Assembly: GCA_030295235.1 (NCBI GenBank)
Contig: AP026137.1
Coordinates: forward strand, 868,001 to 932,000
Source: Fistulifera solaris
Lineage: Eukaryota
DNA: 64,000 nt
Reading direction: 5' to 3'
In this document: piece by piece, positions 3,765 through 56,480 of the stretch
Layout of the letters: each line of letters begins with the position of its first letter
Numbering within the stretch: position 1 is the first letter of the stretch
Notes under the pieces: generated by a model
Seen by the model: the letters and a program-made list of their open reading frames with translations, nothing else
Databases searched by the model: none
Told to the model about the DNA's origin: nothing
Made by a program: the position numbers and the translations under genes

Positions 3765-4680
3765 TAGGTCCACGTACATGCCACGTTGGCCTCGTAGGAA
3801 ATTTATCGACAGAGGGGGTACCCGGATATTGTGTTACTTGACATCGTCCTTTTATCGGCTATGTTTGACTGCAATGCCATAATATAATGAGCCAACATCG
3901 AATATGCGCAATTATAAACGATACTCACATATTCGAAATTGAAACGTAGAAATTAACGAAGATACAACAAACCGAATGTCTACGTCAAATTCACGTAGAC
4001 CCCGTAGGAATTTTATCTATGTAGGTAGCAACTGGAAGGTATCGTCTTAGATTTCAATGATTCTCAGGCCCGACAGCAGCAAATTGCATCAAACTTTTTC
4101 TCAACAGATGTGTATACAGACCATTAAGCAATATTCGACCTCAATCGGAACACCGAACATGAAAAACAACAACAGATGCAATGCTCCGAAGGGCTACGTG
4201 AATGTCACGTAGGCCCCGTAAGGAAGTTTATCGACAGAGGGGGTACCCGGATATTGAGCATTTCGACATCGTCCTTTTATCGGCTATGTTTGATTGCAAT
4301 GCCAAACCATGATGAGCCACATCAGTAATTCGTAATTATAAATGATCTTTACAATAAATTCGAAATCGAAACGTAGAAATTAGCGAAGATACAACACACC
4401 GAATGTCTACTTCAAATTCACGTAGACCCCGTAGGAATTTTATCTATGTAGGTAGCAACTGGAAGGTATCGTACCATATCTCAATGGTTCACGGGCCCGA
4501 CAGCAGCAAATTGCATCTCATCATTTCTTAAAAGACGTGTATACCGACCGTAAGCATGAATCGACCTCAATTGGAACACCGAACATAAAAAATCAACAAC
4601 AGATGCAATGCTTCGGATGTCTACGTGGATTTCACGTAGGCCCCCGTAGGGAAGTTTATCGACAGAGGGGGTACCCGGAG
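3765..4680 (+). repeat. Family A array: 5 conserved cores, ~210-216 bp period, subtypes 1-2-1-2-1
   Basis: Core TCTACGT-N6/7-ACGTAG..CGTAGGRAATTTATC..AGGG..ACCCGGA; TTTATC anchors at ~3802, 4012, 4227, 4439, 4655. Confidence 0.9.
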
Positions 4681-4742
4681 TTGGTTCTACCAGGTACAGT
4701 ACATTATTTTCGCTTTGATCACAAACCACAAACCATAAACCC

Positions 4743-5330
4743 ACAGTTGAGACAATGCATGATATTGATGAAACTAGAGGTGATATCTCCGTGTATGAAT
4801 TTTGGAAAAGACGTCGTCTCACCATGTTTGATGTATCTATCGTTGACACTGAGGCTGATTCCTATGTTACCACTGACCCTAAAATTCTTTTAGCAAGACG
4901 CGAAAAAGAGAAATTCGACAAACATGGCCCCAAATGTGAAGCCCAACGTATTGATTTCACCCCGTTGGTCTTTTCGGCAGATGGATTGATTGGAAAGCAG
5001 GCTAATCTTGCGATCAAAAAGCTTGCTGGGAAATTAGCACTAAAATGGGACAAACAGTATTCTGTTGTATGTGGCTATGTCCGCTCTCGATTGAGCATTT
5101 CCTTAGTCCGTTCCGTTTCTATGCTGTTGCGCAGCCCGCGTAGTGGTTTGCCCCTTAGCTCTCATCCGCTTTGGTTAGATGGTGCTGGTCTGTCTATCTA
5201 CTAACCTTATCCTCAATGGTGCTCCTTCGCGATCTACCGTTTCCCTTCTGAGCGTACCAGATACGTCGTACAACTGATCCTCGTGTTAGACAAGCATAGT
5301 AGAGAAAGTAATACTATAAAGGACAAGTTT

Positions 5331-5365
<35 letters not shown>
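4743..5365 (+). mobile_element. 5'-truncated non-LTR retrotransposon, CRE-clade-like: C-terminal restriction-like endonuclease domain, 3' UTR and poly(A)
   Basis: ORF 4755-5204 reads RGD..FW..FDVSIVD..SY..EKEKFDKH..C..FTPLVFSADG..KW..YSVVCGYVRSR; 34-nt poly(A) at 5332-5365; direct repeat ATAAACCC at 4735-4742 and 5365-5372 (TSD). Confidence 0.85.
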
Positions 5366-5367
<2 letters not shown>

Positions 5368-5480
5368 AACCCCTCCATCTCCATTCATTCAACGCATTCG
5401 CGACCTTGCGACAGTAATTTTTGTATAAATTCAAACATTTGAAGTCTTATCTGCGAACGTAAAAGGCACCGATATCAATC

Positions 5481-5942
5481 ATGAGATGCCCTATGGCATT
5501 GTTGTTGGAAATGGCCTTGGCACTCCAGCGCGAGCGTACTACTTGGTACATTGATGGACACAATCTACTCGGTCACAAAGGAACACCGCGCTCCGTAGAG
5601 GCTTTAATTCAAGCTCTCGAGCCAATACAAGGCGTAGAAAAGATAGCGCTCATTTTGGATTCGAAATTAGAAACAGACCCTCTCATTCAGATACAACCGT
5701 GTGACAACAACGTTGTACTCGAAACCGTCACGCTATCACGCGACATTTCCGCGGATGATTACATTCGCCAACAAATCCATGAAGCACTTCCTCATACTCG
5801 GATCCAAGTCGTTACGGCCGATCGTGATCTGCGACGACAAGTTTTGCAAACGAAACCGGTAGTAAGAGGAGTTGTCAATCCGGTAACCTTTTGGAGGCGA
5901 TATTTACCGCGTCTTTGCGGATACAAGAAACCAAAACAATGA
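5481..5942 (+). CDS. YacP/Rae1-like NYN (PIN-fold) domain protein
   Basis: IDGHNL, ADDYI and VVTADRDL acidic motifs typical of NYN_YacP. Confidence 0.75.
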   Translation: MRCPMALLLEMALALQRERTTWYIDGHNLLGHKGTPRSVEALIQALEPIQGVEKIALILDSKLETDPLIQIQPCDNNVVLETVTLSRDISADDYIRQQIHEALPHTRIQVVTADRDLRRQVLQTKPVVRGVVNPVTFWRRYLPRLCGYKKPKQ

Positions 5943-6049
5943 TGATTAATCTAAATTGTGAACAAGATATGTTATTTTGAATAGCAATTCATGATGTAGC
6001 AACTCTACCAATGTTTCTAAAGTCTAGACTATTAGAATGCAGTTTGAAT

Positions 6050-7726: not shown

Positions 7727-7828
7727 ACGCATCATGAATCATGAAGTAGGTTTTTTATTCACATTTAGGATTTAGATAATTGTATAGCAATGTAGATAGT
7801 TAGCGTTGATTCTTCTACGATATCTATG

Positions 7829-8894: not shown

Positions 8895-9335
8895 ATTGCT
8901 TCGGTGGCGTTTCAAGTGACTGAAATTTAGTCGCGATCGCGTAGAACCAACACTTTACCCTATAGTGAAAATGGCAGACGACAATACGGATGCTTTTCGA
9001 CGCAAATAGTTGCCTTTCCAATGAAGATGATAGTTTTAATAAATCGTATATTGGTATTTCCATGGCATTGGATTATACACTCCGCGCTTTCTGTTTGTGG
9101 ACAACTTTGGTGCTCTCATTGCTTCGGTGGAATTTCGAGTGACTGAAATTTAGTCGCGATCGCGTAGAACCAACACTTTACCCTATAGTGAAAATGGCAG
9201 ACGACAATACGGATGCTTTTCGACGCAAATAGTTGCGTTTCCAATGAAGATGATAGTTTTAATAAATCGTATATTGGTATTTCCATGGCATTTGATTATA
9301 CTCTTCGCGCTTTTGCTTGTGGACAACTTTGGTGC
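8895..9335. repeat. Family B-related near-perfect direct repeat, 2 x ~223 bp
   Basis: GACTGAAATTTAGTCGCGATCGCGTAGAACCAACACTTTACC at 8918 and 9141. Confidence 0.95.
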
Positions 9336-9663: not shown

Positions 9664-10746
9664 TTACCATGACCTTATTACTTCGTCGACGCCAGGAACG
9701 CGACAGAAAAGACGAGCACCGCTGAATAGTGTAACATTCACTGGAAACTCAAAGCGCCTCGTCAGTTCTTCCATTTCCAGAGCGCACTTCGACTCGCATA
9801 CACCCTTCAATTTACTTATGGCTTCAAACATAAAAGGAGGAATTCTCTCGAGAAGTGAATCGAGCACGTCTTGTTGGTCATCGATATCAACATTCCTATC
9901 TAGAAGCATATCCTGAACTAGTGGTCGAACTTCTTGAATTCGCTTTCCGTTTGATTTCTTGAACACGAAATCAAGTGTTCGCGACACCGCATAGTGGGCT
10001 TCAAAGATTCTCAATTTGATGATAGCGAGTGCCACTATATGTGGCCCAGGTAAGTCCACATCGTCGATGTTGGGACACTCCTCAAAGATGTCCCGATATC
10101 GGCAGTTTTCCTCAACGTCGTAGATCCAGTCACCTTCACGAGAGTGCTTATGCTTTACCAGAATTTCATCCGGGTCTAGGTCGTCGTATTGTAAACAATA
10201 GCGGATGAAAGCGTAAGCGTCATCATCTCGGTTCAAATAAAGAAGGATGAATGGGACACGAAATTTCGTATTAAAACCATTCATTTCATCCAATCGCAAA
10301 AGCTCCAGGTAATGAAAGAGCGCCTTCTCCCAGACTTCTTTCACCTCACAGTCGTAGGCAGCCATCCAATACGATTTTGCCAGCTTGGCACAAGCTTTTA
10401 GATACTTTTCCGTCTCATCAAGCTCGCCGAATTCTCCGATACGTGTCTCAAATATATTTTCCGCCACTGCATTGTCTTGCCATGGATCAACAAAGGTTCG
10501 AAGCGGGATAGCCTCTGTGTCAACCCGGTTTCTCTCATCTTCGATTCGCTTGCACAGTTTGCGATGAAGTTGAAAGTGCTTTTTCTGGCATTCCGAACTG
10601 CAATACCAAGCTACTTGGCACCGCGAACAGCGCTGTAAGCTTGCGACGACAATTCGATTACCATAATGGCGACACGCAAAGCAATACGGCTCAGGTTTCA
10701 AGTTGTGATCCTTTCCGTCGTACAAGGGCGTATTTGAACGGTTCAT
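9664..10746 (-). CDS. MYND zinc-finger protein, cluster copy 1
   Basis: CFAC..CSRCQVAWYCSSECQKKH..H..C; NIFETRIG; LELLRLD; PFILLYLNRDDDA. Confidence 0.9.
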   Translation of the reverse strand: MNRSNTPLYDGKDHNLKPEPYCFACRHYGNRIVVASLQRCSRCQVAWYCSSECQKKHFQLHRKLCKRIEDERNRVDTEAIPLRTFVDPWQDNAVAENIFETRIGEFGELDETEKYLKACAKLAKSYWMAAYDCEVKEVWEKALFHYLELLRLDEMNGFNTKFRVPFILLYLNRDDDAYAFIRYCLQYDDLDPDEILVKHKHSREGDWIYDVEENCRYRDIFEECPNIDDVDLPGPHIVALAIIKLRIFEAHYAVSRTLDFVFKKSNGKRIQEVRPLVQDMLLDRNVDIDDQQDVLDSLLERIPPFMFEAISKLKGVCESKCALEMEELTRRFEFPVNVTLFSGARLFCRVPGVDEVIRSW

Positions 10747-13343: not shown

Positions 13344-14483
13344 TTAACTGAAATGGGCATGACTGTCTAGATCTCCCCAAGTCTTGAGAATGCCGGCGGC
13401 TCCAGGAACTCGACAAAAAGCGCGAGCACTACTCCAGAGCGTTTCACCGGCCGGAAAACTCTGACTCATTGAAGCAAAGCAGTGCGTCAAATCATCCATT
13501 TCCAAAGATTGTTTGACTTCACAAACGTCCTTCAAGGATCGTAATGCTGTAAGCACAAACGGAGGAATTCTCTCAAGTAATGCAACAAGAATATCTCGCT
13601 GGTCATCAATATCAAGGTCACTGCGTGTCAGCATATCTTTTACCAGCGATCGAACCTCTACTATTCGCCTTGCAGTTGTTCTTTCAAAAACAAAGTCGAC
13701 TGCTCGTGACACCGCATCGTGCGCAGCAATAATGCGCATTTTTATGATAGCGAGCGCCAATAAAAACGGTTCTGGATTGTGGGCATAGTCCATGTCCGGG
13801 CAATCCTCGAAAATGTCACGATATCGGCAGTCGTTCTCAATCGGATAAATCCAATCACCTTCCCGCGAATGTTGATGTCGCTCAAAAAGTTCGAAAACGT
13901 CATGCTCGCTCAAGCGATATCGCGCATAGGAATAGGCGTCATCGTCTCGGTTGAGGTACAGAAGAATAAACGGAAGTCGAAAGCGAGCTTCGAAACTAAT
14001 CTTATAATCCAACCTCAGAACCTCCAAGCAATGAAAAAGTGACTTTTCCCAGACCTCCTTTATTTCGCAGTCATAGGCTGCCTCCCAATACGATCGTGCC
14101 AACTGGGTGCGTGTCATTACGTAGTAATCAGCGTCATCAATGTCATGGAAATCCCCGATACGCGTCTCGAATAAGTTTTGAGGTACCGTGTCTCCTTCAA
14201 GTGGATCAATATAGGCTCGAAGTGATATGGCTTCTTGCTCTACGGCTTCGATTCCGTGTGCGATATCTTTACAGACCACGCGATGAAGCTTGAAGTGTTT
14301 CTTTTGACAATCGGCACTGCAGTACCAAGCAACCATGCATCGGGAGCAGCGTTTCAGTTCCGAGAGGACTGTATGGCCGTGGAAATGCTTACAGGCAAAG
14401 CAGTACGGATCCTCTCTTAAATTCGTGTCCTTTCCGTCGTAGCAGAATGGAATTTGATCGCCGTCGCCGTCGGAAATATCCAT
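13344..14483 (-). CDS. MYND zinc-finger protein, cluster copy 3
   Basis: Likely start MDISDGDGDQ at 14483, chosen by comparison with paralogues; all family motifs intact. Confidence 0.88.
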   Translation of the reverse strand: MDISDGDGDQIPFCYDGKDTNLREDPYCFACKHFHGHTVLSELKRCSRCMVAWYCSADCQKKHFKLHRVVCKDIAHGIEAVEQEAISLRAYIDPLEGDTVPQNLFETRIGDFHDIDDADYYVMTRTQLARSYWEAAYDCEIKEVWEKSLFHCLEVLRLDYKISFEARFRLPFILLYLNRDDDAYSYARYRLSEHDVFELFERHQHSREGDWIYPIENDCRYRDIFEDCPDMDYAHNPEPFLLALAIIKMRIIAAHDAVSRAVDFVFERTTARRIVEVRSLVKDMLTRSDLDIDDQRDILVALLERIPPFVLTALRSLKDVCEVKQSLEMDDLTHCFASMSQSFPAGETLWSSARAFCRVPGAAGILKTWGDLDSHAHFS

Positions 14484-15579: not shown

Positions 15580-15613
15580 CTATTTATGAACGACAGTCCA
15601 TAGTTGCCGAGAT

Positions 15614-18070: not shown

Positions 18071-18095
18071 GCTTGATCTCCCAGTAATAAGTTGT

Positions 18096-22293: not shown

Positions 22294-22589
22294 GTTTGTA
22301 TGATTTATCTAGTGAAGGGATGAAGGGAAGGTGGACTGACAAAAAATACTCCGGAGTAATAAAAAAGCACCGCGATCGGACACGTGAAAACGTAAAACGT
22401 CTGAGCGGTATCTAGGTATTATACCACGAATGTGTCCCTTTATTATTTTTTTCGCCGACGGTATTGTCGCTGACGCCTGTGTATTCTATAGCAGAACGTT
22501 GATGACCCGATGCGGACAGAAGTCTCTTACGCAATCAACAATATCATCTTCGTAAAAATTGACTGCAAAAACAAACACATGAAAGGATG

Positions 22590-23475
22590 CAACGCTTCGA
22601 ATGTCTACGTAATCCCACGTAGCCCTCGTAGGGAAATTTATCGACAGAGGGAAACCCGGATATTGTGTTATTTCGAACAAACCATTTTTCGCCTCTTTCG
22701 GGCACCAATGTCAACAATACTTTGCGAGACATCGCTTATGCGTACCATAAAACAATAATTGACTCTGATTTGACTATGAAATATGAAATTGAAACAGTAT
22801 AAAAATACAATGCCTCCAATGTCTACAGGTATTTCACGTAGCCGCCGTATCGCCGTAGGAAATTTATCTCTGCAGGGGTACCCGGATATTCATCAATTCG
22901 CCATCATCTAATTTGTGGATCTACAGCAAACAGGGGATAATGTTTCCTTGCCCACCGTATTCGCATTGTATCATCAAGCAATAATTGTCTCCAATTTGAT
23001 AACAAAACGATGATAGAACAAATGATGCCACGGTTCGAATGTCTACGTAATCCCACGTAGCCCTCGTAGGGAAATTTATCGACAGAAAGGAAACCCGGAT
23101 ATTGTGTTATTTCGAACAAACCATTTTTCGCCTCTTTCGGGCACCAATGTCAACAATACTTTGCGAGACATCGCTAATGCGTGCCATGAAACAATAATTG
23201 ACTCTGATTTGACTATGAAATATGAAATTGAAACAGTAAAAAATACAATGCCTCCAATGTCTACAGGTATTTCACGTAGCCGCCGTATCGCCGTAGGAAA
23301 TTTATCTCTGCAGGGGTACCCGGATATTCATCAATTCGCCATCATCTAATTTGTGGATCAGGGGATAATGTTTCCATGCCCACCGTGTTTGCATTGTATC
23401 ATCAAGCAATAATTGTCTCCAATTTGATAGCAAAACGATGACAGGACGAATGATGCCACGGTTCGAATGTTTACC
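22590..23475 (+). repeat. Family A array: 4 cores (1-2-1-2), ~440-bp dimeric unit duplicated almost exactly
   Basis: Cores at ~22600, 22820, 23040 and 23260; the array breaks off at the start of a fifth core (GGTTCGAATGT, ~23460). Confidence 0.92.
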
Positions 23476-23841
23476 TCATGAACAAAAACTCGTACTACAC
23501 ATTTTATTTGGAAGCTCTGTCGTCGTAGATACGATCGGCCGTAACAGCTTGAATCCGCATACCTATGAAGAATATGAGGAAGTGTTTCATAGATTTGTTG
23601 GCGAAGGGTACGATCGGCTGAGATGTCGAGTTAAATGAACTTGAATGAACAATTCCATAGGAGTAAGTTCAAGTAGAAACCACAATTCATTCGGTCGATA
23701 TTTTAGAATCCGTGACTGAAGAGCAGTTGAGTCGGCAAAAGGTCGCCTACTATTTGCGTGACTGTAAACCTTTTGGTTGCAGAAAAGCATTGCATTTTAT
23801 TGTTACCAGGTACATCATTATTACTCCGGAGTAGGTAGATA

Positions 23842-44698: not shown

Positions 44699-44827
44699 TG
44701 CGCAAGATGTTTGTAAGCGATGAAAAGTTTTGATGGCAGGTGTCGTTTGGTTTCGTTTGAATGAAATAATGCGATCGAACAAATGTACACGTCGTCCGTG
44801 CGTCACTCGTACGCTAAATCCAGACTC

Positions 44828-45125
44828 ATTATCCGTGTTCCCCCCTGTCGATAAATTTCCCTACTGGGGGTACGTGAAAACTCCGTAGACTTTCGAAGCG
44901 TTGCATCTTCACATTTTTTAAAGCATGTAATGAAATAAATGGTGATTATTGCTTACAAGTAATTGTTACTTATGTCGGGGCAAGTAAAAAAGTCCTTGAT
45001 GCATATTTGGCTCGAAAAAGCGAGACGGCAAAATACACGATGTCCGTGTACATCTACATCGTTCCTACTCGTATGGAGGCTACGTAACAACACGTAGACT
45101 AGACTTTCAAATCATTGCATCACTC
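44828..45125 (-). repeat. Family A, two cores in reverse orientation
   Basis: ATCCG..CCCCTGTCGATAAATTTCCCTAC..TACGTG..CGTAGAC at ~44831; a degenerate core at ~45045-45100. Confidence 0.8.
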
Positions 45126-45232
45126 CTGATTGCTACGTTTCCAGTGAAAATCGAACCGAATTATCGCTTGTGGATTTGCATAGCCTATGCTGGGGGAAGT
45201 AAAATTGACTTATTTACTGCGGACCTTACCCA

Positions 45233-46075
45233 AAAGGAAATGCTGTCGTGGTTCCCGTAAACCAACACTTTGGCCTACAGTAAAAAATGCGAGATGCGAA
45301 CCGCAAGCATCTAGACCCAGTGAACACGAACTCTGCATTGCAAATGCTTTTCTACATTTTAATGAAAATTCAATGAGCCCTACGAAGCTAAAAAGAAGGA
45401 CGAAATTCGTGCAAATGGGCTTTCGTGTAGATTTTAGAACAATGTTCATGACTGAAATGATGCTGTCGTGGTTCCCGTAAACCAACACTTTGGCCTACAG
45501 TAAAAAAATGCGAGAAGCGAACCGCAAGCATCTAGACCCAGTGAATACGAACTCTGCATTGCAAATGCTTTTCTACATTTTAATGAAACTTCAATGAGCC
45601 CTACGAAGCTAAAAAGAAGGACGAAATTCGTGCAAATAGGCTTTCGTGTAGATTTTAGAATAATGTTCATGACTGAAATGATGCTGTCGTGGTTCCCGTA
45701 AACCAACACTTTGGCCTACAGTAAAAAAATGCGAGAAGCGACCAGCATGCATCTAGAACGAGTGAATACGAACTCTGCATTGCAAATGCTTTTCTACATT
45801 TTAATGAAACTTCAATGAGCCCTACGAAGCTAAAAAGAAGGATGAAATTCGTGCAAATGGGCTTTCGTGTAGATTTTAGAATAATGTTCATGACTGAAAT
45901 GATGCTGTCGTGGTTCCCGTAAACCAACACTTTGGCCTACAGTAAAAAATGCGAGAAGCGAACCGCATGCATCTAGAACGAGTGAATACGAACTCTGCAT
46001 TGCAAATGCTTTTCTACATTTAAATGAAACTTCAATGAGCCCTACGAAGCTAAAAAGAAGGACGAAATCCGTGCG
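45233..46075. repeat. Family B-related homogeneous tandem repeat, ~4 x 221 bp
   Basis: TGCTGTCGTGGTTCCCGTAAACCAACACTTTGG recurs; the spurious ORFs at 45446 and 45667 are offset by 221. Confidence 0.95.
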
Positions 46076-46281
46076 CAGGGACTCTTATTGTTGTTTTTTC
46101 GCTTGACAAAGCCTTGCCGGTGGTATCTTTCGTTATTTTTCCGTATTGATGTCAATTTAATGTCACTTGTCGTTTCATGGCACTTAGTTTACATGTCGGA
46201 AATAGCGACGATGGCATTGGTGCGCACTAGACCCATGTGAGTAACTTATGGTAAACCCATGCTAGACCGGAAAAAATGCTA

Positions 46282-46355
46282 CATTCCGGTTTACCCTCTC
46301 CGCGTAGATAAAATTTCCCTACTGTACGAGGGCTACGTGAAACTGCGTAGAACTC
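46282..46355 (-). repeat. Solo family A core, reverse orientation
   Basis: TCCGG..CCCTC..GATAAAATTTCCCTAC..CGAGGGCTACGTG..GCGTAG. Confidence 0.75.
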
Positions 46356-46459
46356 AAAAATGCGTACGTCATCCACGACACTTGCACGACACAGAAAGAC
46401 GTCACTATAAGGACGTCTTTTCCACTTGAATTTTCTTGTTGTTATCATTATTCATCACC

Positions 46460-47536
46460 ATGATAAAATACACTCTGGCGTTTCTTCTGGCAGCAGCAAG
46501 CTGCATCCCCACAGCAGTCGCATACAATGTGCTCATTATCGGGGGCACTCGCTTTTCGGGAGCGGCGTTGTGGAAAGAATTGCACGACCGCGGTCACTCC
46601 GTCACCGTCTACAATCGCGGAAAAACAATGCCCAAAGTCGTCGCTCCTCATCGAGAAACCGAAGATGAGTTAAGTGCCCGTGTAGCTGCTGCTACATTTC
46701 TAGCGGGTGACCGCGCCGATGCGGACGCTGTCTCGTCTCTTGTAAATCCGTCCGACTATGATTATGTCTTCGACATGAATGCTCGTGAACGATCCGATGT
46801 AGATCCATGGGTCAATGTTTTCAAACAGAGCAGTGGCAACCGTTTGAAGCAGTACGTGTTCATGAGTTCGGCGGGAGTGTACTTGAAAAGCGACGAATTA
46901 CCTCATATGGAGAGAGACCCTACTGACCCGAAGAGTCGCCACAAAGGAAAACTCGACAGCGAGGATCTATTGCAAAAATCTGGATTACCGTGGTGTTCTT
47001 TCCGTCCAACTTATATCTGCGGGCCTGGAAACTACAATCCTGTCGAGCGATACTTTTTCGAGCGCGTGGATTGCAATCGTCCGGTCTGTATCCCGGGGCA
47101 CGGTCAGCACTTGACCGGCTTGGGACATGTCTACGATCTTGCCGTCGCCATGGCCAACGTCATTGATCGCACCGACAAAACGACGGGAAAGGTTTACAAC
47201 GTTCAAAACATCCAAGCTATTACTTTTGATGGTGTTGCCAAGGCTGCCGCCAAGGTATCTGGGAAAGGTTCTGTCAAGATTGTTCATTATGAACCTAAGG
47301 AAATTGATTTCGGTGACAAGAAAGCTTTCCCCATGCGCCCTCAACATTTCTTCACGAGTCCGCTAGAGGCAATGAAGGATCTTGATTGGACACCGAAGTA
47401 CGATACGGTTGAGTCTATTATGCGAGACGCGTACGAGAATGATTTTGTCCACGTGAAGGCAGCTGGAAAACTCAAGGGCGACTTTAGCTGTGATGAATTA
47501 GTCCTACAACACGTAGGAAAAGCAGTCGTTGCTTAG
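46460..47536 (+). CDS. CSP41B: Chloroplast stem-loop-binding protein CSP41b-like (SDR fold), plastid-targeted
   Basis: Signal peptide ending AVA-Y; GGTRFSG; SSAGVYLKSD; DPKSRHKGKL; QHLTGLGHVYDLA; KKAFPMRPQHFF. Confidence 0.9.
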   Translation: MIKYTLAFLLAAASCIPTAVAYNVLIIGGTRFSGAALWKELHDRGHSVTVYNRGKTMPKVVAPHRETEDELSARVAAATFLAGDRADADAVSSLVNPSDYDYVFDMNARERSDVDPWVNVFKQSSGNRLKQYVFMSSAGVYLKSDELPHMERDPTDPKSRHKGKLDSEDLLQKSGLPWCSFRPTYICGPGNYNPVERYFFERVDCNRPVCIPGHGQHLTGLGHVYDLAVAMANVIDRTDKTTGKVYNVQNIQAITFDGVAKAAAKVSGKGSVKIVHYEPKEIDFGDKKAFPMRPQHFFTSPLEAMKDLDWTPKYDTVESIMRDAYENDFVHVKAAGKLKGDFSCDELVLQHVGKAVVA

Positions 47537-48891
47537 GCTCCAAGAGTTTGCATGATTCTTACTAAATAAAGTGCATTCATCGATCATGAGCTCGACCTAT
47601 TGAAATTTCCTGTTAACTAACTCATTCTTAGACGTACTCTCCAGTTAATATGGTTTGGTTGTGGTTCCCAACAACCTATACATAGATTCTTTAACTTTCT
47701 GTGCATGTCTTCAACGAGCAGCAACAGCAAAAACATTTTCTTCCATTCCATGAAACGCAGGTTGTCTGCGACTGAATGAAATAGCTTACCTGGTAAACAA
47801 GACAGCACATCGAAATGGCGTATGGTGACATCAACTGCACACACAAGAGGCTCATACGATTCTTCCCGTAGACCCTTGATTTATTTTTGTTACGATTGCC
47901 GAAGATCACTTTTGCGCTACATAAGTTGGCATCAACTATTCATTCATTCATTCGTTCATCGTAAACGACAGCCCCCGCTAAGGATTCTTCAAGCGAAAGC
48001 AACGAATGGATATTTTTGTTTGCACTTTGACTTCCACAACAGTCGTCCTGAACGAACCCATCTTGTTGTGGTGATGCACTGTTTTGCATCATCTTGACTG
48101 CCAGCATTGTGTAAATGAACCACCGCAGTAAGACACGTATCATTGCTTTGCCGCCCTATTGCTGCTTGATCCAATAGAGCATTTCCTTATCCGCACCCAT
48201 GAGATTGAAAAAATGAGGTCGTAACTCCTTCACAAGCAGAGGTGCGCAGGAGAAATCATCACAAACGAAACGCAAACAACTTTCCCTCCGCATACAAACA
48301 CTCTCAGCTATTGGAATTGCAGTGATCTGAAGCGACAAGCTACATGAATAGACGTTATCGTGACAACAAACGCAACCCCAGATGAGAAAAAAATACCGTC
48401 GATAAAAAAACGTGAAACGAAAATCAAGACTACATGCCAACAGCGAGAAAGAGAAAGGCCGAACAAAAAGAGCATGAGTTTTTCATTTATAGCCCCTCCA
48501 AACAAGTACCCCCTACACTTTAACTGATAATCATTGGGCTTAACGTGTCACGCACCGAACAAATACTTAGTACATTTCAATGGAGCCTTTTTCTCGCTCC
48601 CACATTCAAGGTGCGCAAGGGCCTAAGTACTTCTCAAGAACGGTTAAGACTATCGGCTCAGATGTAGTACGTCAAGATCGTTTGATCGTAATTTTTCGTT
48701 CTGTTAATGACTGGACGTAAAAAAATGCCGCGTTGCCGCGTTCGAAAAAGGCCCCGCACGCCATTCGCAACCCAGTGAAAGCAAAAACAACGGAACGAGC
48801 AACGTTAATCCACTTCAATTGCAAAGAGACTCTGTGTGTATCTAATAGCATCCTCACGATTCATTCAAATCATTCATAGTAAACAATCGCC

Positions 48892-50660
48892 ATGAGCGGG
48901 AAGAAGCGGGGCGCGAAGGTAGCCCCCGGGGACGAGCTCAATGAGGATGCACAGGATATCATCAAACAAAACCTCGAAGTCATGTACGATATTGTCATGA
49001 AAATAAGAGAGGATGAAGAATTTGCGAAATCAATCTACGCCGATTGCCCGCGATTACAGCATATGCTGGAAAAACGACCCGATTTACGGCCCATCTTTGA
49101 GGATCAACGATTAGTCGCAATCAACTTTGAGCAAGTGTATCGAGAGGCGGGAGGTGTGTTACCGGAAGATGAAGAAGAGGAAGAGCTAAAGAAAAAGAAA
49201 ACGAACTACATAGCAATGATCGTCAACAGTCCATGCTTCAAGATTCTCAAAATCTTTCTCTTGTTCAAAAAGATCCTGGCGTGCATATTTGGAGGAGGAA
49301 TGGCGATCATGCTCAGTTTATGGAAATGTCTTTGTTGTTGCTGCGATGATCCTACGGACATGGTAGAGGATCCTGAGGACGAAATTGACGATGACGACGC
49401 GAACACAGCCAACAAAGAAGCGCTTTACCGAGCGGCTGATCACATGGAAGACCCGGAAGTCCAACAACAAATGAATCACTTGCTCGAGAATGATCCAGAT
49501 GGGCTTGCGGATGCTATTGAGGATGATCCAGAGTTACGCGAACTAAGAGACACCAATCCATTGTGCGCGGAACTCATGACTGACCCAGAAACAATGCGGA
49601 TATTGACGGAACCGGATAATCTTCGCGCCCTTGGGGACGCGCCTGCTTTGATTGAAGCCGACTTTAACGATCCCGACTGGACACCGCCGGTAGAAGATGT
49701 GGAAGCCGGCACCAGCTGTGGAGGTGCGGATCTTGCCGCCGCCGAAAGTAACACATTCGGAGGCCACGACAGCTTCCAAGGAGCAGAATATGCGACAGAC
49801 GATGGTGTAGAAGTTCCAATCGAAGACGATGTTGGAGATATTGAAGAAGAGGGTTCCCTCAATTTGGAAAAGAAGAAGAGCCAGCTGACGAGGAAGCGGG
49901 AGAAGAGGAAGAAGAAGAAATGGAGTTCGAGCTGGGTGAAGCAGAAAAACAAGACAACAATTGCAATGCGAATGCCCAGAACAAGCAGAATAAGCAACGG
50001 CAACGAGATCAACCAGTACAAGGCGGTTTCTTCGCTCAAGTTGGAGCCGGCATTACTGATATGATGGCAGCACAGCTGGTTGGTGTCGGTATCAGTGAAC
50101 TTGCTGGTCAAGACGATCCATTTGCCGGCCTCGAGCAAGCGGAAGGCGCAGCGGATTGTGGAGAAGGCATGGCAGAGAATGCTAATCAAGCTGCAGATAT
50201 GGCTGCGGTATCAGAGACACTTCTTGGCGAGGATATGGCAGCCAATATGGAAGCCGGGATCGATGAATTAGAAAGCGCGAATGACGCCACAGGTGGTCAG
50301 GGAGCGGCTGCGGCGGCAGGGGCTGGCGCAGCTGCCGGGGGTGTGGCGGCTGCTGGCGTTGCCGTATCAAGAGGGGCAGAAGACGGCGAAGGCGGCGAGG
50401 AAGGAGGAAAGAAGAAACGTTTTGGTGTAGTCGGTAACTGGGCCTCGGCAATTTCTTCTGCCGGCAAGGAATATTTTGCCTCAGCCTTGCTCGGTGATGA
50501 CTTGGGAGCATTAGTCGTCGAAAAGATCGAAGAGAAGGATAGTAACGACAACGACAAAAGTTTCAAGCTAGATGAAGAGACAGCAGCAATGGATTCTCTT
50601 GAAGAAGGACACACGTCCTCAAGACGGAGCCTCTTTTCATCGAAACGAAGTCTGCAATAG
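48892..50660 (+). CDS. Uncharacterised acidic protein with STI1/DP-like repeats and a hydrophobic, Cys-rich segment; frameshift near 49855
   Basis: EDPEVQQQM, DDPELREL and MTDPETMRIL repeats; CLCCCC after a hydrophobic stretch. Confidence 0.65.
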
Positions 50661-51059
50661 TCCTTCCAGTGGTTGAAACCAATGTTCGTTAGAGTTGTAA
50701 ATATAGACCCGCCTTAGGCATTTTCAAAAGTTTTCTCGGTGATTACTGGCATCTTATGAATATATTAGAGTTTGTGAGCACTTCGGCTGACATTTGGGTG
50801 CAATACTTAGTACTTAGACAGTCTCGGTATAAGTTGGGAAGTAAAACGTCCTACGCGCTCTCTAGGAGCCCTAGTCTATTCTCAGTGCGTGTCGTACGTG
50901 TACTGTCGCGGTGGGATATCATTTTCGCTTTCGAAAGAGGACGATGATGTTTGCGCGCGAGATGCGATTGCGTTCGACGTTCGATCACTTTCTCAACGAA
51001 GACCATTCACATCAATGACGCGTTCTTATTCATAATTGCAACTTTACCGCACCCACAAG

Positions 51060-51989
51060 ATGACAATCATTTCCACAAGACCCAGCTTTTCCATTCATTC
51101 ATCTTTATCTACTCTTGTCGACAAGTACGAAGGATTTATTATAGATCAATTCGGCGTCTTACACGATGGAACGAAAGGATTAGCAGGAGCCGCCGATGCG
51201 GTGCGTTTCCTCAAAGCCCGCGGAAAGAAACTCATCATTTTGTCGAATTCATCCAAATTAACCGACTTTACACTGCAAAAACTCCCCCAATTCGGTTTGC
51301 AACCCAGTGATTTCGTACACGCCGTGACGAGTGGACAAGAAGCCTGCGCGTACGTGAAGCAACAACACTTTCAACAACCGGCACTCTTTTTGACGTGGTC
51401 TTCTCAAAACGACGCGGATGTCTTCTTACAGGCTTGTGGGACGCCCGTTGTCACGCGTGTGGAAGAGGCCAAGTTTATTCTCTTGCATGGAGCCAGGCGT
51501 CTCTACGGGACGGATCTGGATTTGGAGCAATGTTATATGACGGGAGACTTGACCGTGGTGGAGCCACTATTGAAACAATGTGTCGAGCACCAGCTACCGA
51601 TGATCTGTGCCAATCCGGATTTTGTCATGGTTCGGACTGACGGAAAACTTGTTTACATGCCTGGGACGATTGCACAGCGTTACGAAGAATTGGGTGGGAA
51701 GGTTACGAGTTTCGGTAAACCGAATAAGGAACACTTTAAAGCGTGTTTGAGGGAACTCGAACTTCCAGCGGAGAAAGTTGTTCATGTTGGCGATTCGTTG
51801 CATCACGATATTATGGGGGCCAACGCCGCTGGCCTCGACAGTATTTTCGTAGCCGGAGGAGTGCATCGCCATGAACTGGACAATCGTCCCGGCGAAATGC
51901 CGTCACGTAAGTCATGTCTTGAATTGTTTGAACGACACGGTCAGTTTCCGACGCACGTGGTGCCTTTGTTTCGAATGGATGACAGCTGA
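51060..51989 (+). CDS. HAD-superfamily class IIA hydrolase
   Basis: IDQFGVLHDG; LSNSS; CANPD; GKP; VGDSLHHDIMGA. Confidence 0.92.
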   Translation: MTIISTRPSFSIHSSLSTLVDKYEGFIIDQFGVLHDGTKGLAGAADAVRFLKARGKKLIILSNSSKLTDFTLQKLPQFGLQPSDFVHAVTSGQEACAYVKQQHFQQPALFLTWSSQNDADVFLQACGTPVVTRVEEAKFILLHGARRLYGTDLDLEQCYMTGDLTVVEPLLKQCVEHQLPMICANPDFVMVRTDGKLVYMPGTIAQRYEELGGKVTSFGKPNKEHFKACLRELELPAEKVVHVGDSLHHDIMGANAAGLDSIFVAGGVHRHELDNRPGEMPSRKSCLELFERHGQFPTHVVPLFRMDDS

Positions 51990-52364
51990 TTGCTTTCAAT
52001 TAGCTTGCAACAAACTCGACTTCTGCCGCTATTCTACGATCCGCTGAAGCTAGCTTATACCATGAAACGCTAAGAATTGCCCTAACTAGAACATTTGCAG
52101 TTTACTGATGGAATTAGCAAGCTTTCCCTTTGTTTTAGGATAATTGTGTGTTTTATAGGCCAAGAATTTGCTCTCTTCTATACCATCGAAAGAATCATAC
52201 CAGGTATTCCAAGTTAACCGCATAAGGAGTTTCCATCTAACTCCGGCAGATGCATTACAGTTCTCAAGAAAACAATTGACCATCGCGATGGACCATCCAT
52301 CATTATTGCAAGACGGCGTGTAAAGTTAGCGTACACATTTAGCTGCATTTAGTTTTAGAAGTGA

Positions 52365-52625
52365 CACACGACTAAAAATGCAGTCGTGGTACTGTAGCTA
52401 TAAGAACCGCATGAACGTCTAGCAAGGCTCTTCGCCGTAGAATAAAATGGTTTGTAACGCAAACGCTGCTTAAGACTATTTCATTGCAACAAAAACAACT
52501 CGAGCTCAAGATATTTTGTTGAACGAACGAATTTTGGGCAGCATTGTCGCGCCAGAGAATATTGACTCATAACTGAAGTGCAGTCGTGGCGAATACGGAC
52601 AACACTATGGTCCATAGTAAATACG
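52365..52625. repeat. Family B copy, ~1.2 units
   Basis: TGCAGTCGTGG at ~52379 and ~52579; GCAAGGCTCTTCG..AAACGCTGCT..AGACTATTT..GAACGAACGAATT, as at 1500-1660. Confidence 0.85.
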
Positions 52626-52861
52626 AAAGACTTTCGACAATAATAAGGTTAGTAGATAATTCGTTGCGTCGGTTAGCTCTAACCGTACAGTACAAGTTGT
52701 TATTTTTACCGCGTTATTTTTTCGCCCGAAAAAAATGACGATGAAAAAATGAAGCGGTTACCTGGTACGGTACGGTACCGTACCATAACCATTAACCATT
52801 AACATCTGTCATCATCTCATTCCATTCTCTTTCTTGTGTTCATGCACCTTTCTAAGGCGTC

Positions 52862-53503
52862 ATGACCGCAGTTGCTGCTCAAAGTGAATACGAAATCACC
52901 CGTGCACAAAACATAGAACGCAACAATGCTCGATTGCGTGCACTCGGCTTGATTACGGAAGACGAAGAACGTCAGTCCAACGCTGCTGGCTGGGGAAAGC
53001 AATCGAAGCCCCTCAAGCAAGTTAACTCGCAATCTGCTTCTACTTCAAAGGAAAAGCAAAATAAGAAACGCCCATCTCCGTCTGCGGTGTCGGAAGGTCG
53101 CAAATCACGCCGCTTGTTGGGATTGCAAGCGGAGCATTCAACATCCACTGCAACACCCGCCGAATTGCAAGATCTTCCGATCATTCCCGTAGAACAGCGC
53201 CACCAGACACGACAAGAAGCTGCTTTACGCTACTATCAATCTTCCGACGACGCGACACAGAAAGCTGCGGCCGAAAATCCGACCGCGACCTACGAACATT
53301 GCTTGATGCGCATTCAAAGCATGACACACGCCGGTCTCGCCAAGCGCATCAAAGTCATGGAACGGGCCGCTGGAAAACATTGCGTAGTGAAAATGGCCAT
53401 CTTTGCCAAGTGTCTACAAGACGAAGGATTATCGGAATTGGCTGCTGACGCGAAGGAAGCATTGGAACGTTTGAAAGCGCTACAACCTCCCCCGGATTTA
53501 TGA
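52862..53503 (+). CDS. Hypothetical protein, probably nuclear
   Basis: 213-aa ORF; SEYE..R..NIERN...L.ALGL and RKSRRL motifs, common in nuclear proteins. Confidence 0.7.
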   Translation: MTAVAAQSEYEITRAQNIERNNARLRALGLITEDEERQSNAAGWGKQSKPLKQVNSQSASTSKEKQNKKRPSPSAVSEGRKSRRLLGLQAEHSTSTATPAELQDLPIIPVEQRHQTRQEAALRYYQSSDDATQKAAAENPTATYEHCLMRIQSMTHAGLAKRIKVMERAAGKHCVVKMAIFAKCLQDEGLSELAADAKEALERLKALQPPPDL

Positions 53504-53592
53504 AAACGCCGGATTTTTGAACAATAAATTACCAATGCTGGAAACGTTTATTACTTGCTTTGTATGATTTTAGACTAAACGTGTCGTAAGGA

Positions 53593-54727
53593 TTACATCA
53601 AACCAGCCGTTTCGTCAAATCCCAAAGCGATGTTCAAGTTCTGCACAGCCGCACCACTTGCGCCTTTGCCCAAATTGTCTAGGCGTGCCACCAATAACAC
53701 TTGCTGTTCTTCGTCGTTCGCAAAGACGAAAATTTGCAATTTATTGGTATTCGCTAAAGTATCCGCCGCCAGAAAGGCTCCTCGCTCGAGCAATCCACTT
53801 TCCTTGACGGCACTTTCACCCAGTGGCATGACCTCCACAAACGTCGATCCTTCGTAATGTTTTTGGTACGCCTCGTGTATCTTGGCACCCGTGACACCAG
53901 GAGCCATCCATGCGTAATGCAACGGAACGGAGACGACCATCCCTTGCGCAAAGGTGCCGACGGCGGGCTGAAAGATGGGCTTAGTACCCAACCCCGAATA
54001 CACACTCATTTCGGGAACATGCTTGTGTTTCAGCGATAAGCCGTACGTTCCCCATGGTTCATGCTTTTCGTTTTCGAAAATTTCCATGAGCTGCCTCCCA
54101 CCGCCACTGTATCCGGAAATCGCATTGACCGTCAATGGCGTGCCCTTGGGCAAGAGTCCGGCATCGACCAATGGACGCGTCAATCCGATGAAACCAGTAG
54201 GATAGCATCCCGGGTTGGCGATGCGTTTTGACGATTCCAATTTCGATCTCTGTTCTTTCGACATTTCGGGAAAGCCATAAACCCAGTCGTCGTTGACGCG
54301 AAAGGCCGTGCTGGCGTCAATGAGGACGGTGCTGTCGTTGTCGGGTTCGACCCACGAAGCAGCTTCGATCGACGCAGCATCGGGAAGGCCTGGAGTCACA
54401 GAAATGAGTAAGACTGGCAACCAACACATAGGTCTAACAAAGCCACATCCATATTAACTTACAGAGAATGACAGCGTCGGCTTCATTGATGAGTCTCTTC
54501 CGTGTCGCTTCGTCTTTTCGAAGGGCATCAGGTATACTTAAAATCTCCAAATCCTCACGAGCGCTCAACCGATCTCGCACTTGCAACCCAGTCGTTCCAG
54601 CTTCTCCATCAATGAACACTTTCTTTTTTGCCGACAAGAACGATGGTTCTCGGCGGACCGATCTCGACACAAAGGCGTGGCTCGTGGCTGCCAAGAAAGC
54701 ACACGTAGTCAGGGCGATCAGCTTCAT
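53593..54727 (-). CDS. argC: N-acetyl-gamma-glutamyl-phosphate reductase (type 2 ArgC), plastid-targeted; one intron
   Basis: Presequence [55 protein letters not shown]. Confidence 0.95.
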
Positions 54728-55124
54728 TATTACTTCTCTTCCTCTCTTAACAAATTGTTCAATGAGTGTGTAAAGAGAGATTTGTGGTCAAAATGGAAGT
54801 AAAAACAACGGAAAAAGGAGAAATTGCAACGATCTTTGACATCCAATCGACGACAAAGCGAAGGATCGGATTATTTTCGAAAGAGCGCAAACACAAAAAG
54901 TGCCAAAAGGTGAAGAAGAGTAGGTCTATAAAAAACGGAGTAGTCTTGCGTATCTTACCGGCAATGGCTCTCCCCTGCAATAACGCTTGGCATCAAAGTT
55001 TTATCGGCGGGATGATTGACGATTCGATGCAAAGACAATCTCATTAAAGCCATAAACGCTGTCACCTTCGTGCCAACAAACGATTATCAGCATCGAATTG
55101 AATGCATTTACGTGAAACGCATGA

Positions 55125-56480
55125 AAGATGCAACGCTTCGAATGTCTACGTAATTTCACGTAGCTCTCGTAAGGAAATTTATCGACAGAGGGCAACCCGA
55201 ATATTGTGTAAATTTCATGATACCATGTTTCGCGTTTGTTGGGCACCAATGTCAACAATACTCTGCCCAACATCACTAATGCATGCAATGAAACAGTAAT
55301 CGACTTTGGTTATTATTTACATGAAACAGTAGAAAGATAAAACGCTTTTAGTGTCTACGCGTATTTTACGTAGCAGCCGTAGGAAATTTATCTCTGCAGG
55401 GCAACCCGGAACTTGCATTTTTCGCCATCATTCAATTCTTGAAATTACAGTGCACGGGTGACTACGTTGCCTTGTCCACCGTATTCACTTCGTATCTAAA
55501 AGCATTAATGGTCTCCATTTGATAACAAAACGATGCTGGAACGAATGATGCCACGGTTCGAATGTCTACGTAATCCCACGTAGCCCTCGTAGGGAAATTT
55601 ATCGACAGAGGGGAAACCCGGATATTGTCTAATTTCGAACAAACCATCTTTCGCCTCTTTCGGGGACCAAAGTCAACAATACTTTGCGAGACATTGCTTA
55701 TGCGTGCCATGAAACAATAATTGACTCTGATTTGACTATAAAATTAAAACAGTAAAAAAATACAATGCTTCCAATGTCTACAGGTATTTCACGTAGCCGC
55801 CGTCCCCGTAGGAAATTTATCTCTGTAGGGGTACCCGGATATATGCATCAATTCGCCATCATCTAATTTGTGGATCTACAGCAAACAGGGGATAATGTTT
55901 CCTTGCCCACCGTGTTTGCATTGTATCATAAAGCAGTAATTGTTTCCAATTCGATAACAAAACGATGACAGAATGAATGATGCCACGGTTCGAATGTCTA
56001 CGTAATCCCACGTAGCCCTCGTAGGGGAAATTTATCGACAGAGGGGAAACCCGGATATTGTCTAATTTCGAACAAACCATCTTTCGCCTCTTTCGGGGAC
56101 CAATGTCAACAATACTTTGCGAGACATCGCTTATGCGTGCTATGAAACAGTAATCAGCAGTGTTTTATCATTTACATGAAACAGTAGAAAGAAAAAAAAC
56201 GCTTCCAGTGTCTACGCGTATTTGCGTAGCCGCGGTAGGAAATTTATCTGTGCAGGCTATCCCGGAGCTTGCATTTTTAGCATCATCCAATTCTTGGATT
56301 TACAGTGCACGGATGTCTACGTTGCCTTGTCTACCGTAATTACTTCGTATCGAAAAGCAGTATTTGTCTCCGATTTGATGACAAAACGTTGCTGGAACGA
56401 ATGATGTAACGCTTCGAATGTCTACGTAATCTCACGTAGCTCTCTTAGGGAAATTTATCGACAGAGGGCAACCCGGATGT
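55125..56480 (+). repeat. Family A array: 7 cores (1-2-1-2-1-2-1), ~210-218 bp period
   Basis: TTTATC anchors at ~55177, 55387, 55598, 55816, 56031, 56243, 56455; spacers closely match those of the 22.6-kb array. Confidence 0.93.

What the first reader, a model, noticed from the sequence alone, without database searches (positions are those of the whole stretch)
3765..56480. Family A: dispersed arrays of a structured ~65-bp core with strict two-subtype alternation (candidate ncRNA/ribozyme array or non-autonomous element)
Seen: about 19 cores at five loci (3.8-4.7, 22.6-23.5, 44.8-45.1 reverse, 46.3 reverse, 55.1-56.5 kb). Consensus AATGT CTACGT-N6/7-ACGTAG CCCTCGTAGGGAAATTTATC(GACAG|TCTGC)AGGG-N-ACCCGGATATT. 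The ~150-bp spacers diverge strongly between the 3.8-kb array and the others, but the core and the subtype 1/2 alternation persist. The first inverted repeat survives changes in both arms: CTACGC..GCGTAG at ~56212, GGGCTACGTGA..TCACGTAGGCCC at ~4191, CCACGT..ACGTTGG at ~3769. Other possible pairings are CCCTC/GAGGG, GG-GAAA/GCAA-CC (GNRA-like loops) and AATGTC/GATATT. Inference: selection on a hairpin or a dyad protein-binding site. Candidates are a tandemly transcribed and processed small RNA (retrozyme-like), a rolling-circle-amplified element, or paired ACGT bZIP-type sites. I do not recognise it as a known family.
Basis: partly seen in the sequence, partly recalled or inferred. Interest (0 to 1): 0.8.

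Follow-up and report, generated by a model that had tools for sequence, protein, structure and literature searches.

The report
Dispersed two-subtype tandem DNA repeat
This is a real, high-copy tandem DNA repeat sitting between genes of a probably diatom-like alga, whose short core stays conserved while the rest decays, but nothing tested here supports the idea that it is a structured RNA or ribozyme.

Summary
A profile of the core finds 19 copies on the family strand at five places, plus one partial copy. A and B subtypes alternate strictly inside three arrays, whose repeating unit is a ~427-433 bp dimer. The core is much better kept than the spacers. Array 1 against arrays 2 and 5 gives A cores 78% identical (z 21), while the spacers are at or near background.

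The RNA reading is not supported:
- Rfam gives nothing.
- No array contains the hammerhead core motif.
- The consensus fold is -1.29 kcal/mol with no covariation.
- Single-copy folds average z -0.39.
- The dyad is intact in only 10 of 18 cores, with one compensatory change.

Summed contig depth over array 5 is 17-93 times the flanks in two DNA runs. One dimer of array 5 is closer to array 2 than to its own neighbours.

Best reading: a lineage-specific, dispersed satellite-like higher-order repeat in promoter-side intergenic DNA, with its core constrained at the DNA level, probably as a protein-binding platform. This is a new member of a known kind and of modest interest.

The parts
3749..4683 (+). 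Array 1: five cores A,B,A,B,A at 3749-3834 (A, degenerate at the array edge), 3961-4041 (B), 4175-4257 (A), 4388-4468 (B) and 4602-4683 (A). The dimer is ~427 bp. Its spacers have diverged from those of arrays 2 and 5.
   Evidence: nhmmer; TRF (3778-4679, period 427, 2.1 copies, 86% matches); sequence; alignments.
22586..23476 (+). Array 2: cores at 22586-22668 (A), 22805-22890 (B), 23024-23107 (A) and 23243-23328 (B), then an A core cut off inside its left dyad arm at 23452-23476.
   Evidence: nhmmer; blastn (22583-23018 is 91.6% and 23017-23444 is 90.0% identical to the array 5 dimer 55540-55975); sequence. TRF did not list it.
44826..44907 (-). Solo A core, 128 bp upstream of the first ATG (44698) of the minus-strand ORF 44048-44698.
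   Evidence: nhmmer (E 2.3e-21); sequence; ORFs.
45038..45121 (-). Degenerate core in the B position, 213 bp before the solo A core. It keeps a perfect CTACGT-N6-ACGTAG dyad, but its GTAGGAAATTTATC block has decayed.
   Evidence: nhmmer (E 4e-6); dyad match (45080-45097); sequence.
46281..46361 (-). Odd single core carrying insertions, 99 bp upstream of the ATG (46460) of the plus-strand epimerase-like ORF. A 221-bp tandem array of another family (45240-46074) lies between it and the degenerate core.
   Evidence: nhmmer (E 1.3e-13); sequence; ORFs; Pfam.
55127..56482 (+). Array 5: seven cores A,B,A,B,A,B,A at 55127-55208, 55336-55417, 55547-55628, 55759-55842, 55979-56062, 56194-56273 and 56403-56482. 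The dimer is ~433 bp.
   Evidence: nhmmer; TRF (55123-56478, period 433, 3.2 copies, 79% matches); sequence.
55540..55975 (+). The array-2-like dimer inside array 5. It is 90-92% identical to array 2 but only 76-81% identical to its own neighbours, which marks exchange between loci 32 kb apart.
   Evidence: blastn; per-segment identities.

Best explanation
Family A is a lineage-specific, multi-copy, satellite-like DNA repeat of a compact, probably diatom-like nuclear genome.

Structure: its unit is a higher-order dimer of two ~213-219 bp monomers, A and B. Each monomer has a ~85 bp core followed by a ~125-140 bp spacer.

Dynamics: arrays sit in intergenic DNA, mostly on the promoter side of genes. 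They grow and shrink by unequal recombination between cores and exchange sequence between loci as DNA.

Constraint: the core is held at the level of DNA sequence, not RNA pairing. Most likely it is a composite protein-binding platform made of two ACGT-containing half-sites (CTACGT and CACGTAG), an almost invariant GTAGG(G)AAATTTATC block and CCCGGA.

Shown here: that the family exists, the dimer alternation, core conservation exceeding spacer conservation, the lack of RNA-structure signal, excess depth in DNA runs, and exchange between loci.

Inferred: protein binding, any effect on chromatin or neighbouring promoters, and the mode of dispersal.
For: 1. Real repeat with dimer alternation.

2. 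Core better kept than spacers.
- Array 1 against arrays 2 and 5: A cores 78% identical (z 21.5, n=18 pairs) and B cores 68% (z 9.3, n=10).
- The spacer after A keeps only residual homology (z 4.1). The spacer after B gives z 1.3, the same as the mismatched-spacer controls at 0.7-1.1.
- Inside array 1 the two B cores agree at 79 of 81 columns, against 207 of 264 in the two spacers.

3. Conservation comes in blocks. 11 of the 19 invariant alignment columns fall in TAGGAAATTTATC. The rest lie in CTAC, CGT and GGA.

4. The dyad behaves as sequence rather than pairing. The right arm is kept in 15 of 18 cores and the left arm in 10 of 18. Left-arm changes in B cores are uncompensated, with one exception.

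5. Short motif iteration: CGTAG occurs at 9.2 per kb in the arrays against 0.76 per kb elsewhere.

6. Many further copies.
- Summed contig depth in the three array 5 bins is 2795, 640 and 512 in X1, where flanking bins are 12.8-67.4 (mostly 20-45). It is 2652, 506 and 438 in X2, where flanking bins are ~8-32.
- 16 (X1) and 27 (X2) records depart before 55577. 6+10 (X1) and 15 (X2) depart behind 55622-55626, with low agreement among their loose ends.

7. DNA-level exchange: dimer 55540-55975 is 91.6% identical to array 2 but 76.5% and 80.7% to its neighbours.

8. Arrays 1 and 5 begin and end on A cores, and a solo A core exists. This fits recombination between cores.

9. Position: 7 of the 8 sides of the four host intergenic regions face ORF 5' ends, with cores 72-540 bp from the first ATG.

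10. Non-coding: ORFs inside the arrays have no Pfam match and the cores carry indels.
Against: - There is no direct evidence that any protein binds. The motif readings (ACGT boxes, GATA- or GGATA-like) are recalled resemblances, not tests.
- Between the two dimer variants of arrays 2 and 5, B cores are hardly better kept than spacers (0.67-0.73 against 0.63-0.78). The constraint is therefore clear for A cores and across the deep array 1 comparison, but not everywhere.
- All 19 copies come from one 64-kb window and are related by descent. The pair counts and z-scores are not independent, and the power to see covariation is low.
- Core-limited gene conversion could mimic selection.
- The degenerate core at 45038-45121 keeps a perfect dyad while the rest has decayed. 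That would fit a hairpin or dyad constraint.
- The promoter-side bias rests on 4 regions and on unverified ORF-based gene starts.
- The tool warns that summed contig depth is not a copy number.
Confidence: 0.5

Rival explanations
1. It is a non-autonomous mobile DNA element. The core holds the cis-acting sequences recognised by a transposase or rolling-circle Rep encoded elsewhere: a short hairpin or dyad, adjacent CGTAG iterons and an ATATT-containing end. Arrays arise by tandem or read-through insertion. The core is conserved because only copies with an intact core propagate.
For: - The dyad plus direct CGTAG repeats resembles an origin or transposase-binding layout.
- The family is multi-copy, with the core set in many different flanks.
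- A solo ~85 bp core exists.
- Arrays have a sharp right end at ...CCCGGA(T) in arrays 1 and 5.
- Related dimers occur at two loci 32 kb apart.
Against: - Array flanks share no terminal sequences or inverted repeats, and I saw no target-site duplication (by eye).
- No transposase, Rep/helicase, integrase or reverse transcriptase is present among the 54 non-array window ORFs scanned.
- In-place conservation of the B cores of array 1 against their spacers is not explained by selection on master copies alone.
- Array starts and ends are not at the same point of the monomer, as a nick-to-nick rolling-circle unit would predict.
Confidence: 0.2
2. It is a neutral satellite with no function. The core looks conserved only because it is the one segment shared by all subfamilies, so gene conversion and unequal exchange keep homogenising it while the spacers drift.
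For: - Exchange between loci does occur.
- Array 5 is a mosaic of two dimer variants with a chimeric third dimer.
- Between the two variants, B cores are no better kept than spacers.
- Other unrelated ~220-bp tandem families fill neighbouring intergenic regions. Tandem-repeat formation therefore seems generic in this genome.
Against: - Array 1 cores carry their own fixed variants (GGGGGTACCC, AAGTTTATC), so they have not recently been converted by arrays 2 or 5.
- They are still ~80% identical to those cores, while the spacers are at background.
- The block-wise invariance is not what conversion tracts alone predict.
Confidence: 0.2
3. It is a tandemly transcribed and processed structured RNA. 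This is the first reader's retrozyme-like ncRNA or new self-cleaving ribozyme, with the core forming a hairpin junction.
For: - The consensus can be drawn with a 6-bp hairpin, CCCT/AGGG and GGG-GAAA-CCC stems.
- One compensatory change is present (a5_B3).
- 3 of 15 cores fold at z about -2.
- Tandem ~200-400 bp units are the layout of animal non-LTR retrozymes (abstract seen).
Against: - No Rfam family at gathering over the whole window.
- At E <= 10 over the four array regions there are only hits far below threshold.
- No array has CUGANGA on either strand.
- The RNAalifold consensus is -1.29 kcal/mol with a covariation term of +0.09.
- Covariation is no higher than in shuffles (167 of 500 and 104 of 500 as high).
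- Predicted folds differ from copy to copy, with mean z -0.39.
- The dyad is broken in 8 of 18 cores.
Confidence: 0.05

Closest known systems
Dispersed euchromatic satellite-like repeats near genes, such as the Tribolium castaneum TCAST-like elements and Cast1-Cast9 satDNAs (abstracts seen). The Drosophila 1.688 X-linked repeats are mentioned in the introduction shown.
   Same: - Short head-to-tail arrays, from partial monomers up to a few units, scattered in gene-rich DNA.
- Sequence exchange between distant arrays.
- Non-coding.
- Proposed spread by transposon-like carriage or eccDNA, and possible cis-regulatory effects.
   Different: - Different organism group and no sequence relation.
- The monomer here is ~215 bp in a strict two-subtype dimer.
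- A sharply bounded ~85 bp core outlives the spacers.
- No large heterochromatic parent array is known here, and I could not look for one because no genome is held.
Conserved boxes inside satellite monomers, such as the CENP-B box of alpha satellite (recalled, not checked in any call).
   Same: A short protein-binding block is kept inside otherwise fast-evolving tandem monomers. This is how I think the core works.
   Different: The core here is much longer and composite, the arrays are short and intergenic, and no binding protein is known.
Hammerhead-bearing tandem repeats or non-LTR retrozymes and plant retrozymes (abstract seen; listing only).
   Same: Tandem units of a few hundred bp, intergenic location, and a conserved small module in each unit.
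   Different: The defining ribozyme is absent, and there is no support for any conserved RNA fold.
Helitron- or Helentron-associated tandem repeats, such as DINE-TR1-type central tandem repeats (recalled; only the title of PMC3833285 was seen in the listing).
   Same: ~150-225 bp tandem units that disperse as short arrays in euchromatin, with a short hairpin in the conserved part.
   Different: No conserved element arms flank the arrays, no Helitron termini were recognised, and no RepHel gene lies in the window.

Membership tests
Dispersed satellite-like tandem repeat with higher-order (dimer) unit | Head-to-tail tandem monomers | tested here: met
   TRF periods 427 and 433; blastn ladder; cores spaced 210-219 bp apart.
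Dispersed satellite-like tandem repeat with higher-order (dimer) unit | Monomer subtypes in a fixed order, with same-type monomers more alike than adjacent ones | tested here: met
   A,B alternation in 3 of 3 arrays. A against B align only over the core at ~72%, while A against A reach 76-100% over whole dimers.
Dispersed satellite-like tandem repeat with higher-order (dimer) unit | Many copies at many loci | tested here: inconclusive
   Five places in this window. Summed contig depth is 17-93 times the flanks in two DNA runs, with many divergent flanks, but the tool states that depth is not a copy number. No genome is held.
Dispersed satellite-like tandem repeat with higher-order (dimer) unit | Non-coding | tested here: met
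   The cores contain indels. 0 of the 6 array ORFs scanned match Pfam at E <= 1.
Retrozyme or hammerhead tandem repeat | A hammerhead (or other known self-cleaving) ribozyme in each unit | tested here: not met
   0 Rfam matches at gathering. At E <= 10 there are only unrelated hits of 11-19 bits against gathering scores of 31-100. 0 CUGANGA in the 5 array regions on both strands (the motif is recalled).
Retrozyme or hammerhead tandem repeat | Unit-length linear or circular RNA | not testable with these tools
   No run on record as RNA was listed, and contigs cannot show RNA ends or levels.
Structured ncRNA (any) | Conserved secondary structure supported by covariation | tested here: not met
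   Power is limited to 18 related copies.
MITE or DNA transposon | Terminal inverted repeats and target-site duplications at element ends | tested here: inconclusive
   Array flanks share nothing above chance and I saw no duplication at the ends. No empty sites were available to compare.
Helitron or rolling-circle element | Defined 5' and 3' termini with a subterminal 3' hairpin, and a RepHel source | tested here: inconclusive
   A 6-bp hairpin exists, but it lies ~50 bp from the array's right end. No Rep or helicase ORF lies in the window. The rest of the genome could not be searched. The features of the family are recalled.
ACGT-core (bZIP/bHLH-type) binding sites | ACGT-core motif present and conserved | tested here: met
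   The CGT of the right-arm ACGT is invariant in 18 of 18 cores and ACGTAG is kept in 15 of 18. ACGTAG occurs at 4.7 per kb in the arrays against 0.12 per kb elsewhere.
ACGT-core (bZIP/bHLH-type) binding sites | Bound by such a factor | not testable with these tools
   Needs EMSA, DAP-seq or one-hybrid assays.

The most novel reading that the evidence does not exclude
The ~215-bp unit is a functional module and not junk. An ~85-bp sequence-specific protein platform (dyad, CGTAG iterons and the invariant GTAGGAAATTTATC block) alternates with a roughly nucleosome-sized free spacer. Arrays of these modules would then build phased, factor-bound promoter or boundary chromatin in a compact algal genome. 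Alternatively, the platform is the origin-like cis element of a new DNA-level (eccDNA or rolling-circle) tandem mobile element. Three unrelated tandem families in this one window share a ~213-223 bp monomer, which would fit a common, length-setting mechanism.
Probability: 0.12. Interest if true: 0.7.

Novelty: new member of a known kind. Interest (0 to 1): 0.3.

Why it matters
As it stands, this is a clean description of a new repeat family in a poorly studied algal lineage. It also corrects the ribozyme or ncRNA lead, and such repeats need masking and annotation.

It would matter more if the core proves to be a bound site. Arrays fill up to 86% of a divergent promoter region (array 1: 935 of 1092 bp between the two start codons). 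They would then be candidate regulatory or chromatin-phasing elements in a gene-dense genome.

The shared ~220-bp period of unrelated families hints at a general rule for how tandem repeats form there.

Tried and rejected
- Whole-genome census: not possible, because no genome is held.
- Copies elsewhere. The core pattern gave 8 loci in metagenome contigs, 7 in genome contigs and 0 in viral contigs.
  - blastn with two dimers found nothing in the first 8.
  - The core profile matches all 15 loci only over the stretch the pattern selected (9-18 bits against 46-82 for true cores) and finds no second copy.
  - I rejected them as chance matches, so I had no sequences from other organisms for a covariation test.
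- Expression. No RNA holder was listed. Run X3 looks like RNA, with GT..AG joints and a poly-A loose end. It has no contig cover in bins 55110-56297. The tool bars reading a part without cover as evidence, so I draw nothing from it.
- Known RNA families: none.
- tRNAs: none.
- Pol III reading. The B-box-like GGTTCGAAT (motif recalled) occurs in only 4 family copies, three full A cores and the partial A core, and is not kept in the others. I saw no A box by eye, and T-runs after the core are not conserved. Rejected.
- Coding reading: rejected.
- Shared element arms: none.
- Relation of Family A to the other ~220-bp tandem families: none detected (z -1.4 to 2.5; nhmmer).
- Earlier findings of this scan: nothing.
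- Papers. Four searches on diatom or satellite repeats listed no description of such a family in diatoms. A sequence cannot be searched in that library, and Dfam and Repbase were not available, so 'undescribed' is not shown.
- Lineage. The first Atlas look-up, with the chelatase, gave bacterial CobN clusters and was uninformative.

Full report
**Setting**

The window is nuclear DNA of a gene-dense eukaryote with few introns.
- ORFs carry CobN/Mg-chelatase with a DUF3479 piece upstream, zf-MYND, JmjC, kinase plus EF-hand, SNARE, ankyrin, and two adjacent helicase-associated (HA) domain genes.
- The nearest Atlas clusters of an HA protein are mostly Bacillariophyta, at a score of 0.83, which is a lead only.
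- Contigs of one run show GT..AG joints.
- I therefore call the organism diatom-like. That is inferred, not shown.
- No whole genome is held.

Yes.
- blastn with one dimer draws a ladder at 3.8-4.7, 22.6-23.5 and 55.1-56.5 kb, plus single hits at 44.8 and 46.3 kb on the other strand.
- A profile of 18 aligned cores (alignment A1) finds those 18 cores, a degenerate one at 45121-45038(-) with E 4e-6, and a cut-off A core at 23452-23476. It finds nothing else in the 64 kb apart from weak echoes of the palindromic part.
- Subtype A (..TTTATCGACAGA..) and subtype B (..TTTATCTCTGCA.., or TATGTA in array 1) alternate without exception in the three arrays.
- The repeating unit is a dimer of 427-433 bp.
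- Arrays 1 and 5 begin and end on an A core. Array 2 ends inside one.

**Core against spacer**

- Between array 1 and arrays 2 and 5, A cores are 78% identical (z 21.5 over 18 pairs) and B cores 68% (z 9.3 over 10 pairs).
- The spacer after A keeps only a trace of homology (z 4.1). The spacer after B is at the level of the mismatched controls (z 1.3 against 0.7-1.1).
- Inside array 1, the two B cores differ at 2 of 81 columns, while the spacers differ at 57 of 264.
- Between the two dimer variants found in arrays 2 and 5, the A core is again better kept (0.88-0.93 against 0.63-0.78 in spacers). The B core is not (0.67-0.73).
- In two DNA runs the summed contig depth over array 5 is 17-93 times that of the flanks. 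Many contigs leave the reference just before 55577 and just after 55622-55626 with dissimilar continuations. This fits many more copies that share the core but not the flanks. The tool warns that this depth is not a copy number.

**Is it a structured RNA?**

Nothing I could test says so.
- Rfam has no match at gathering in the window. At E <= 10 in the four array regions it gives only stray hits far below threshold.
- No array contains the hammerhead CUGANGA core on either strand (the motif is recalled).
- RNAalifold keeps only 4 invariant pairs of the dyad and 2 of a GG/CC stem, at -1.29 kcal/mol with a covariation term of +0.09.
The covariation score is 0.044 against 0.041 in shuffles (167 of 500 as high). 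With the AATGT/ATATT closing helix added it is 0.078 against 0.066 (104 of 500 as high). Slid controls reach similar covariation.
- I folded 15 of the 18 cores, leaving out three near-identical ones. Their z-scores run from +0.75 to -2.25 with a mean of -0.39. Only 3 lie near -2, and the predicted shapes differ between copies.
- The 6-bp dyad is perfect in 10 of 18 full cores. The right arm ACGTAG is kept in 15 of 18 and the left arm CTACGT in 10 of 18.
- B cores of arrays 2 and 5 carry CTACAG or CTACGC without a matching change. The one exception is a5_B3 (CTACGC..GCGTAG).
- With 18 related copies the power is low, so this weakens the RNA reading without excluding it.

**What the conservation looks like instead**

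- The invariant columns form blocks: CTAC, (A)CGT(AG), an almost unbroken TAGGAAATTTATC, and GGA of CCCGGA. Variable filler lies between them, including the 6-7 bases between the dyad arms.
- CGTAG is iterated, once inverted and two or three times direct in each core. It is 12 times denser in the arrays than elsewhere.
- This is the pattern of sequence-specific recognition of double-stranded DNA. Which factor binds, if any, is unknown. The resemblance of TACGTA/CACGTA to ACGT-core boxes is recalled, not tested.

**Dynamics**

- Array 5 is a mosaic. Its middle dimer (55540-55975) is 91.6% and 90.0% identical to the two dimers of array 2, which lies 32 kb away. It is only 76.5% and 80.7% identical to its own neighbours.
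- The third dimer starts like the middle one and ends like the first.
- So sequence moves between arrays as DNA.
- Joints in the DNA runs that skip or repeat one or more dimers hint at other array lengths in the genome or on the other haplotype. Their short sides make them weak evidence.
- The 400 bp on either side of the arrays share nothing.
- No transposon-type protein is encoded in the window.

**Position**

The four host intergenic regions are 3663-4754, 22294-23841, 44699-46459 and 54728-56672.
- The first three lie between divergent ORFs. The fourth lies between a 5' end and the 3' end of a SNARE gene.
- Seven of the eight sides are therefore 5' ends.
- Array 1 fills 935 of 1092 bp between two start codons.
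- With only four regions and ORF-based gene starts, this is suggestive at best.

**Verdict**

- The family is real, non-coding, multi-copy and organised as a dimeric higher-order tandem repeat, with a core under DNA-level constraint.
- It works like a dispersed euchromatic satellite carrying a conserved box. The closest described parallels are the satellite-like arrays near genes in Tribolium (abstracts).
- It fails the defining test for retrozymes and other ribozyme repeats.
- Whether the core serves the host (regulation or chromatin), serves its own spread (a transposase- or Rep-type site), or is merely homogenised cannot be settled from one window.
- I put the odds at about 0.5, 0.2 and 0.2, with 0.05 for an RNA.
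- Supplementary files of the papers were not consulted. Dfam and Repbase could not be searched.

Noticed in passing
window 8895-9335, 45240-46074, 1281-1868, 52140-52733: This is a second tandem superfamily with ~220-223 bp monomers. Its members are linked only through short shared cores: 8895 against 45240 gives z 12.8, 45240 against 1281 gives z 13.0, and 1281/1501 against 52140 gives z 35-66. It has the same 'short core, free remainder' design as Family A but no detectable relation to it. The bin 52140-52733 has about 8 times the flank depth in DNA runs.
   Followed up: partly
window 36348-38130: A third, unrelated tandem array: 221 bp x 8.1 copies at 96% identity, with an internal ~112-bp half-period. 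It fills the divergent region between a PPIP5K-like ORF and a kinase/EF-hand gene.
   Followed up: no
whole window: Three unrelated tandem families share a monomer length of ~213-223 bp and together with Family A occupy roughly a tenth of the 64 kb, all of it intergenic. A common length-setting mechanism (chromatin spacing or small DNA circles) is a guess I could not test.
   Followed up: no
window 23489-23631 vs 5738-5868: Directly after the cut-off end of array 2 lies a 144-bp stretch that is 71.5% identical, in reverse orientation, to part of the NYN-like ORF 5481-5942. It is a gene fragment or a paralogue piece.
   Followed up: no
window 55110-56500 (runs X1, X2): Contig joints skip 425-466 bp or go back 965-1278 bp within array 5, at depths near half to all of the baseline in both DNA runs. 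They may reflect dimer-number variants between haplotypes or copies elsewhere. The sides are short (21-54 letters).
   Followed up: no
window 46200-64000 (runs X1, X2): Many single-base differences sit at about half depth in run X1. This suggests two haplotypes of a heterozygous diploid. The same organism, or a very close one, is present at ~20x depth in a wetland metagenome run.
   Followed up: no
window 19771-20643 and 20698-21429; 9664-10746, 13344-14849, 15765-16799; 38327-40023 and 40828-42415: Local gene families: two adjacent HA-domain genes, three zf-MYND genes, and two kinase/EF-hand (CDPK-like) genes in opposite orientation.
   Followed up: no
window 23032, 23460, 55555, 55987: The array-2-type A cores carry GGTTCGAAT, which resembles the tRNA-gene B box (recalled). 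The window has 5 matches in all against 0.8 expected. The motif is not kept in the other cores.
   Followed up: partly
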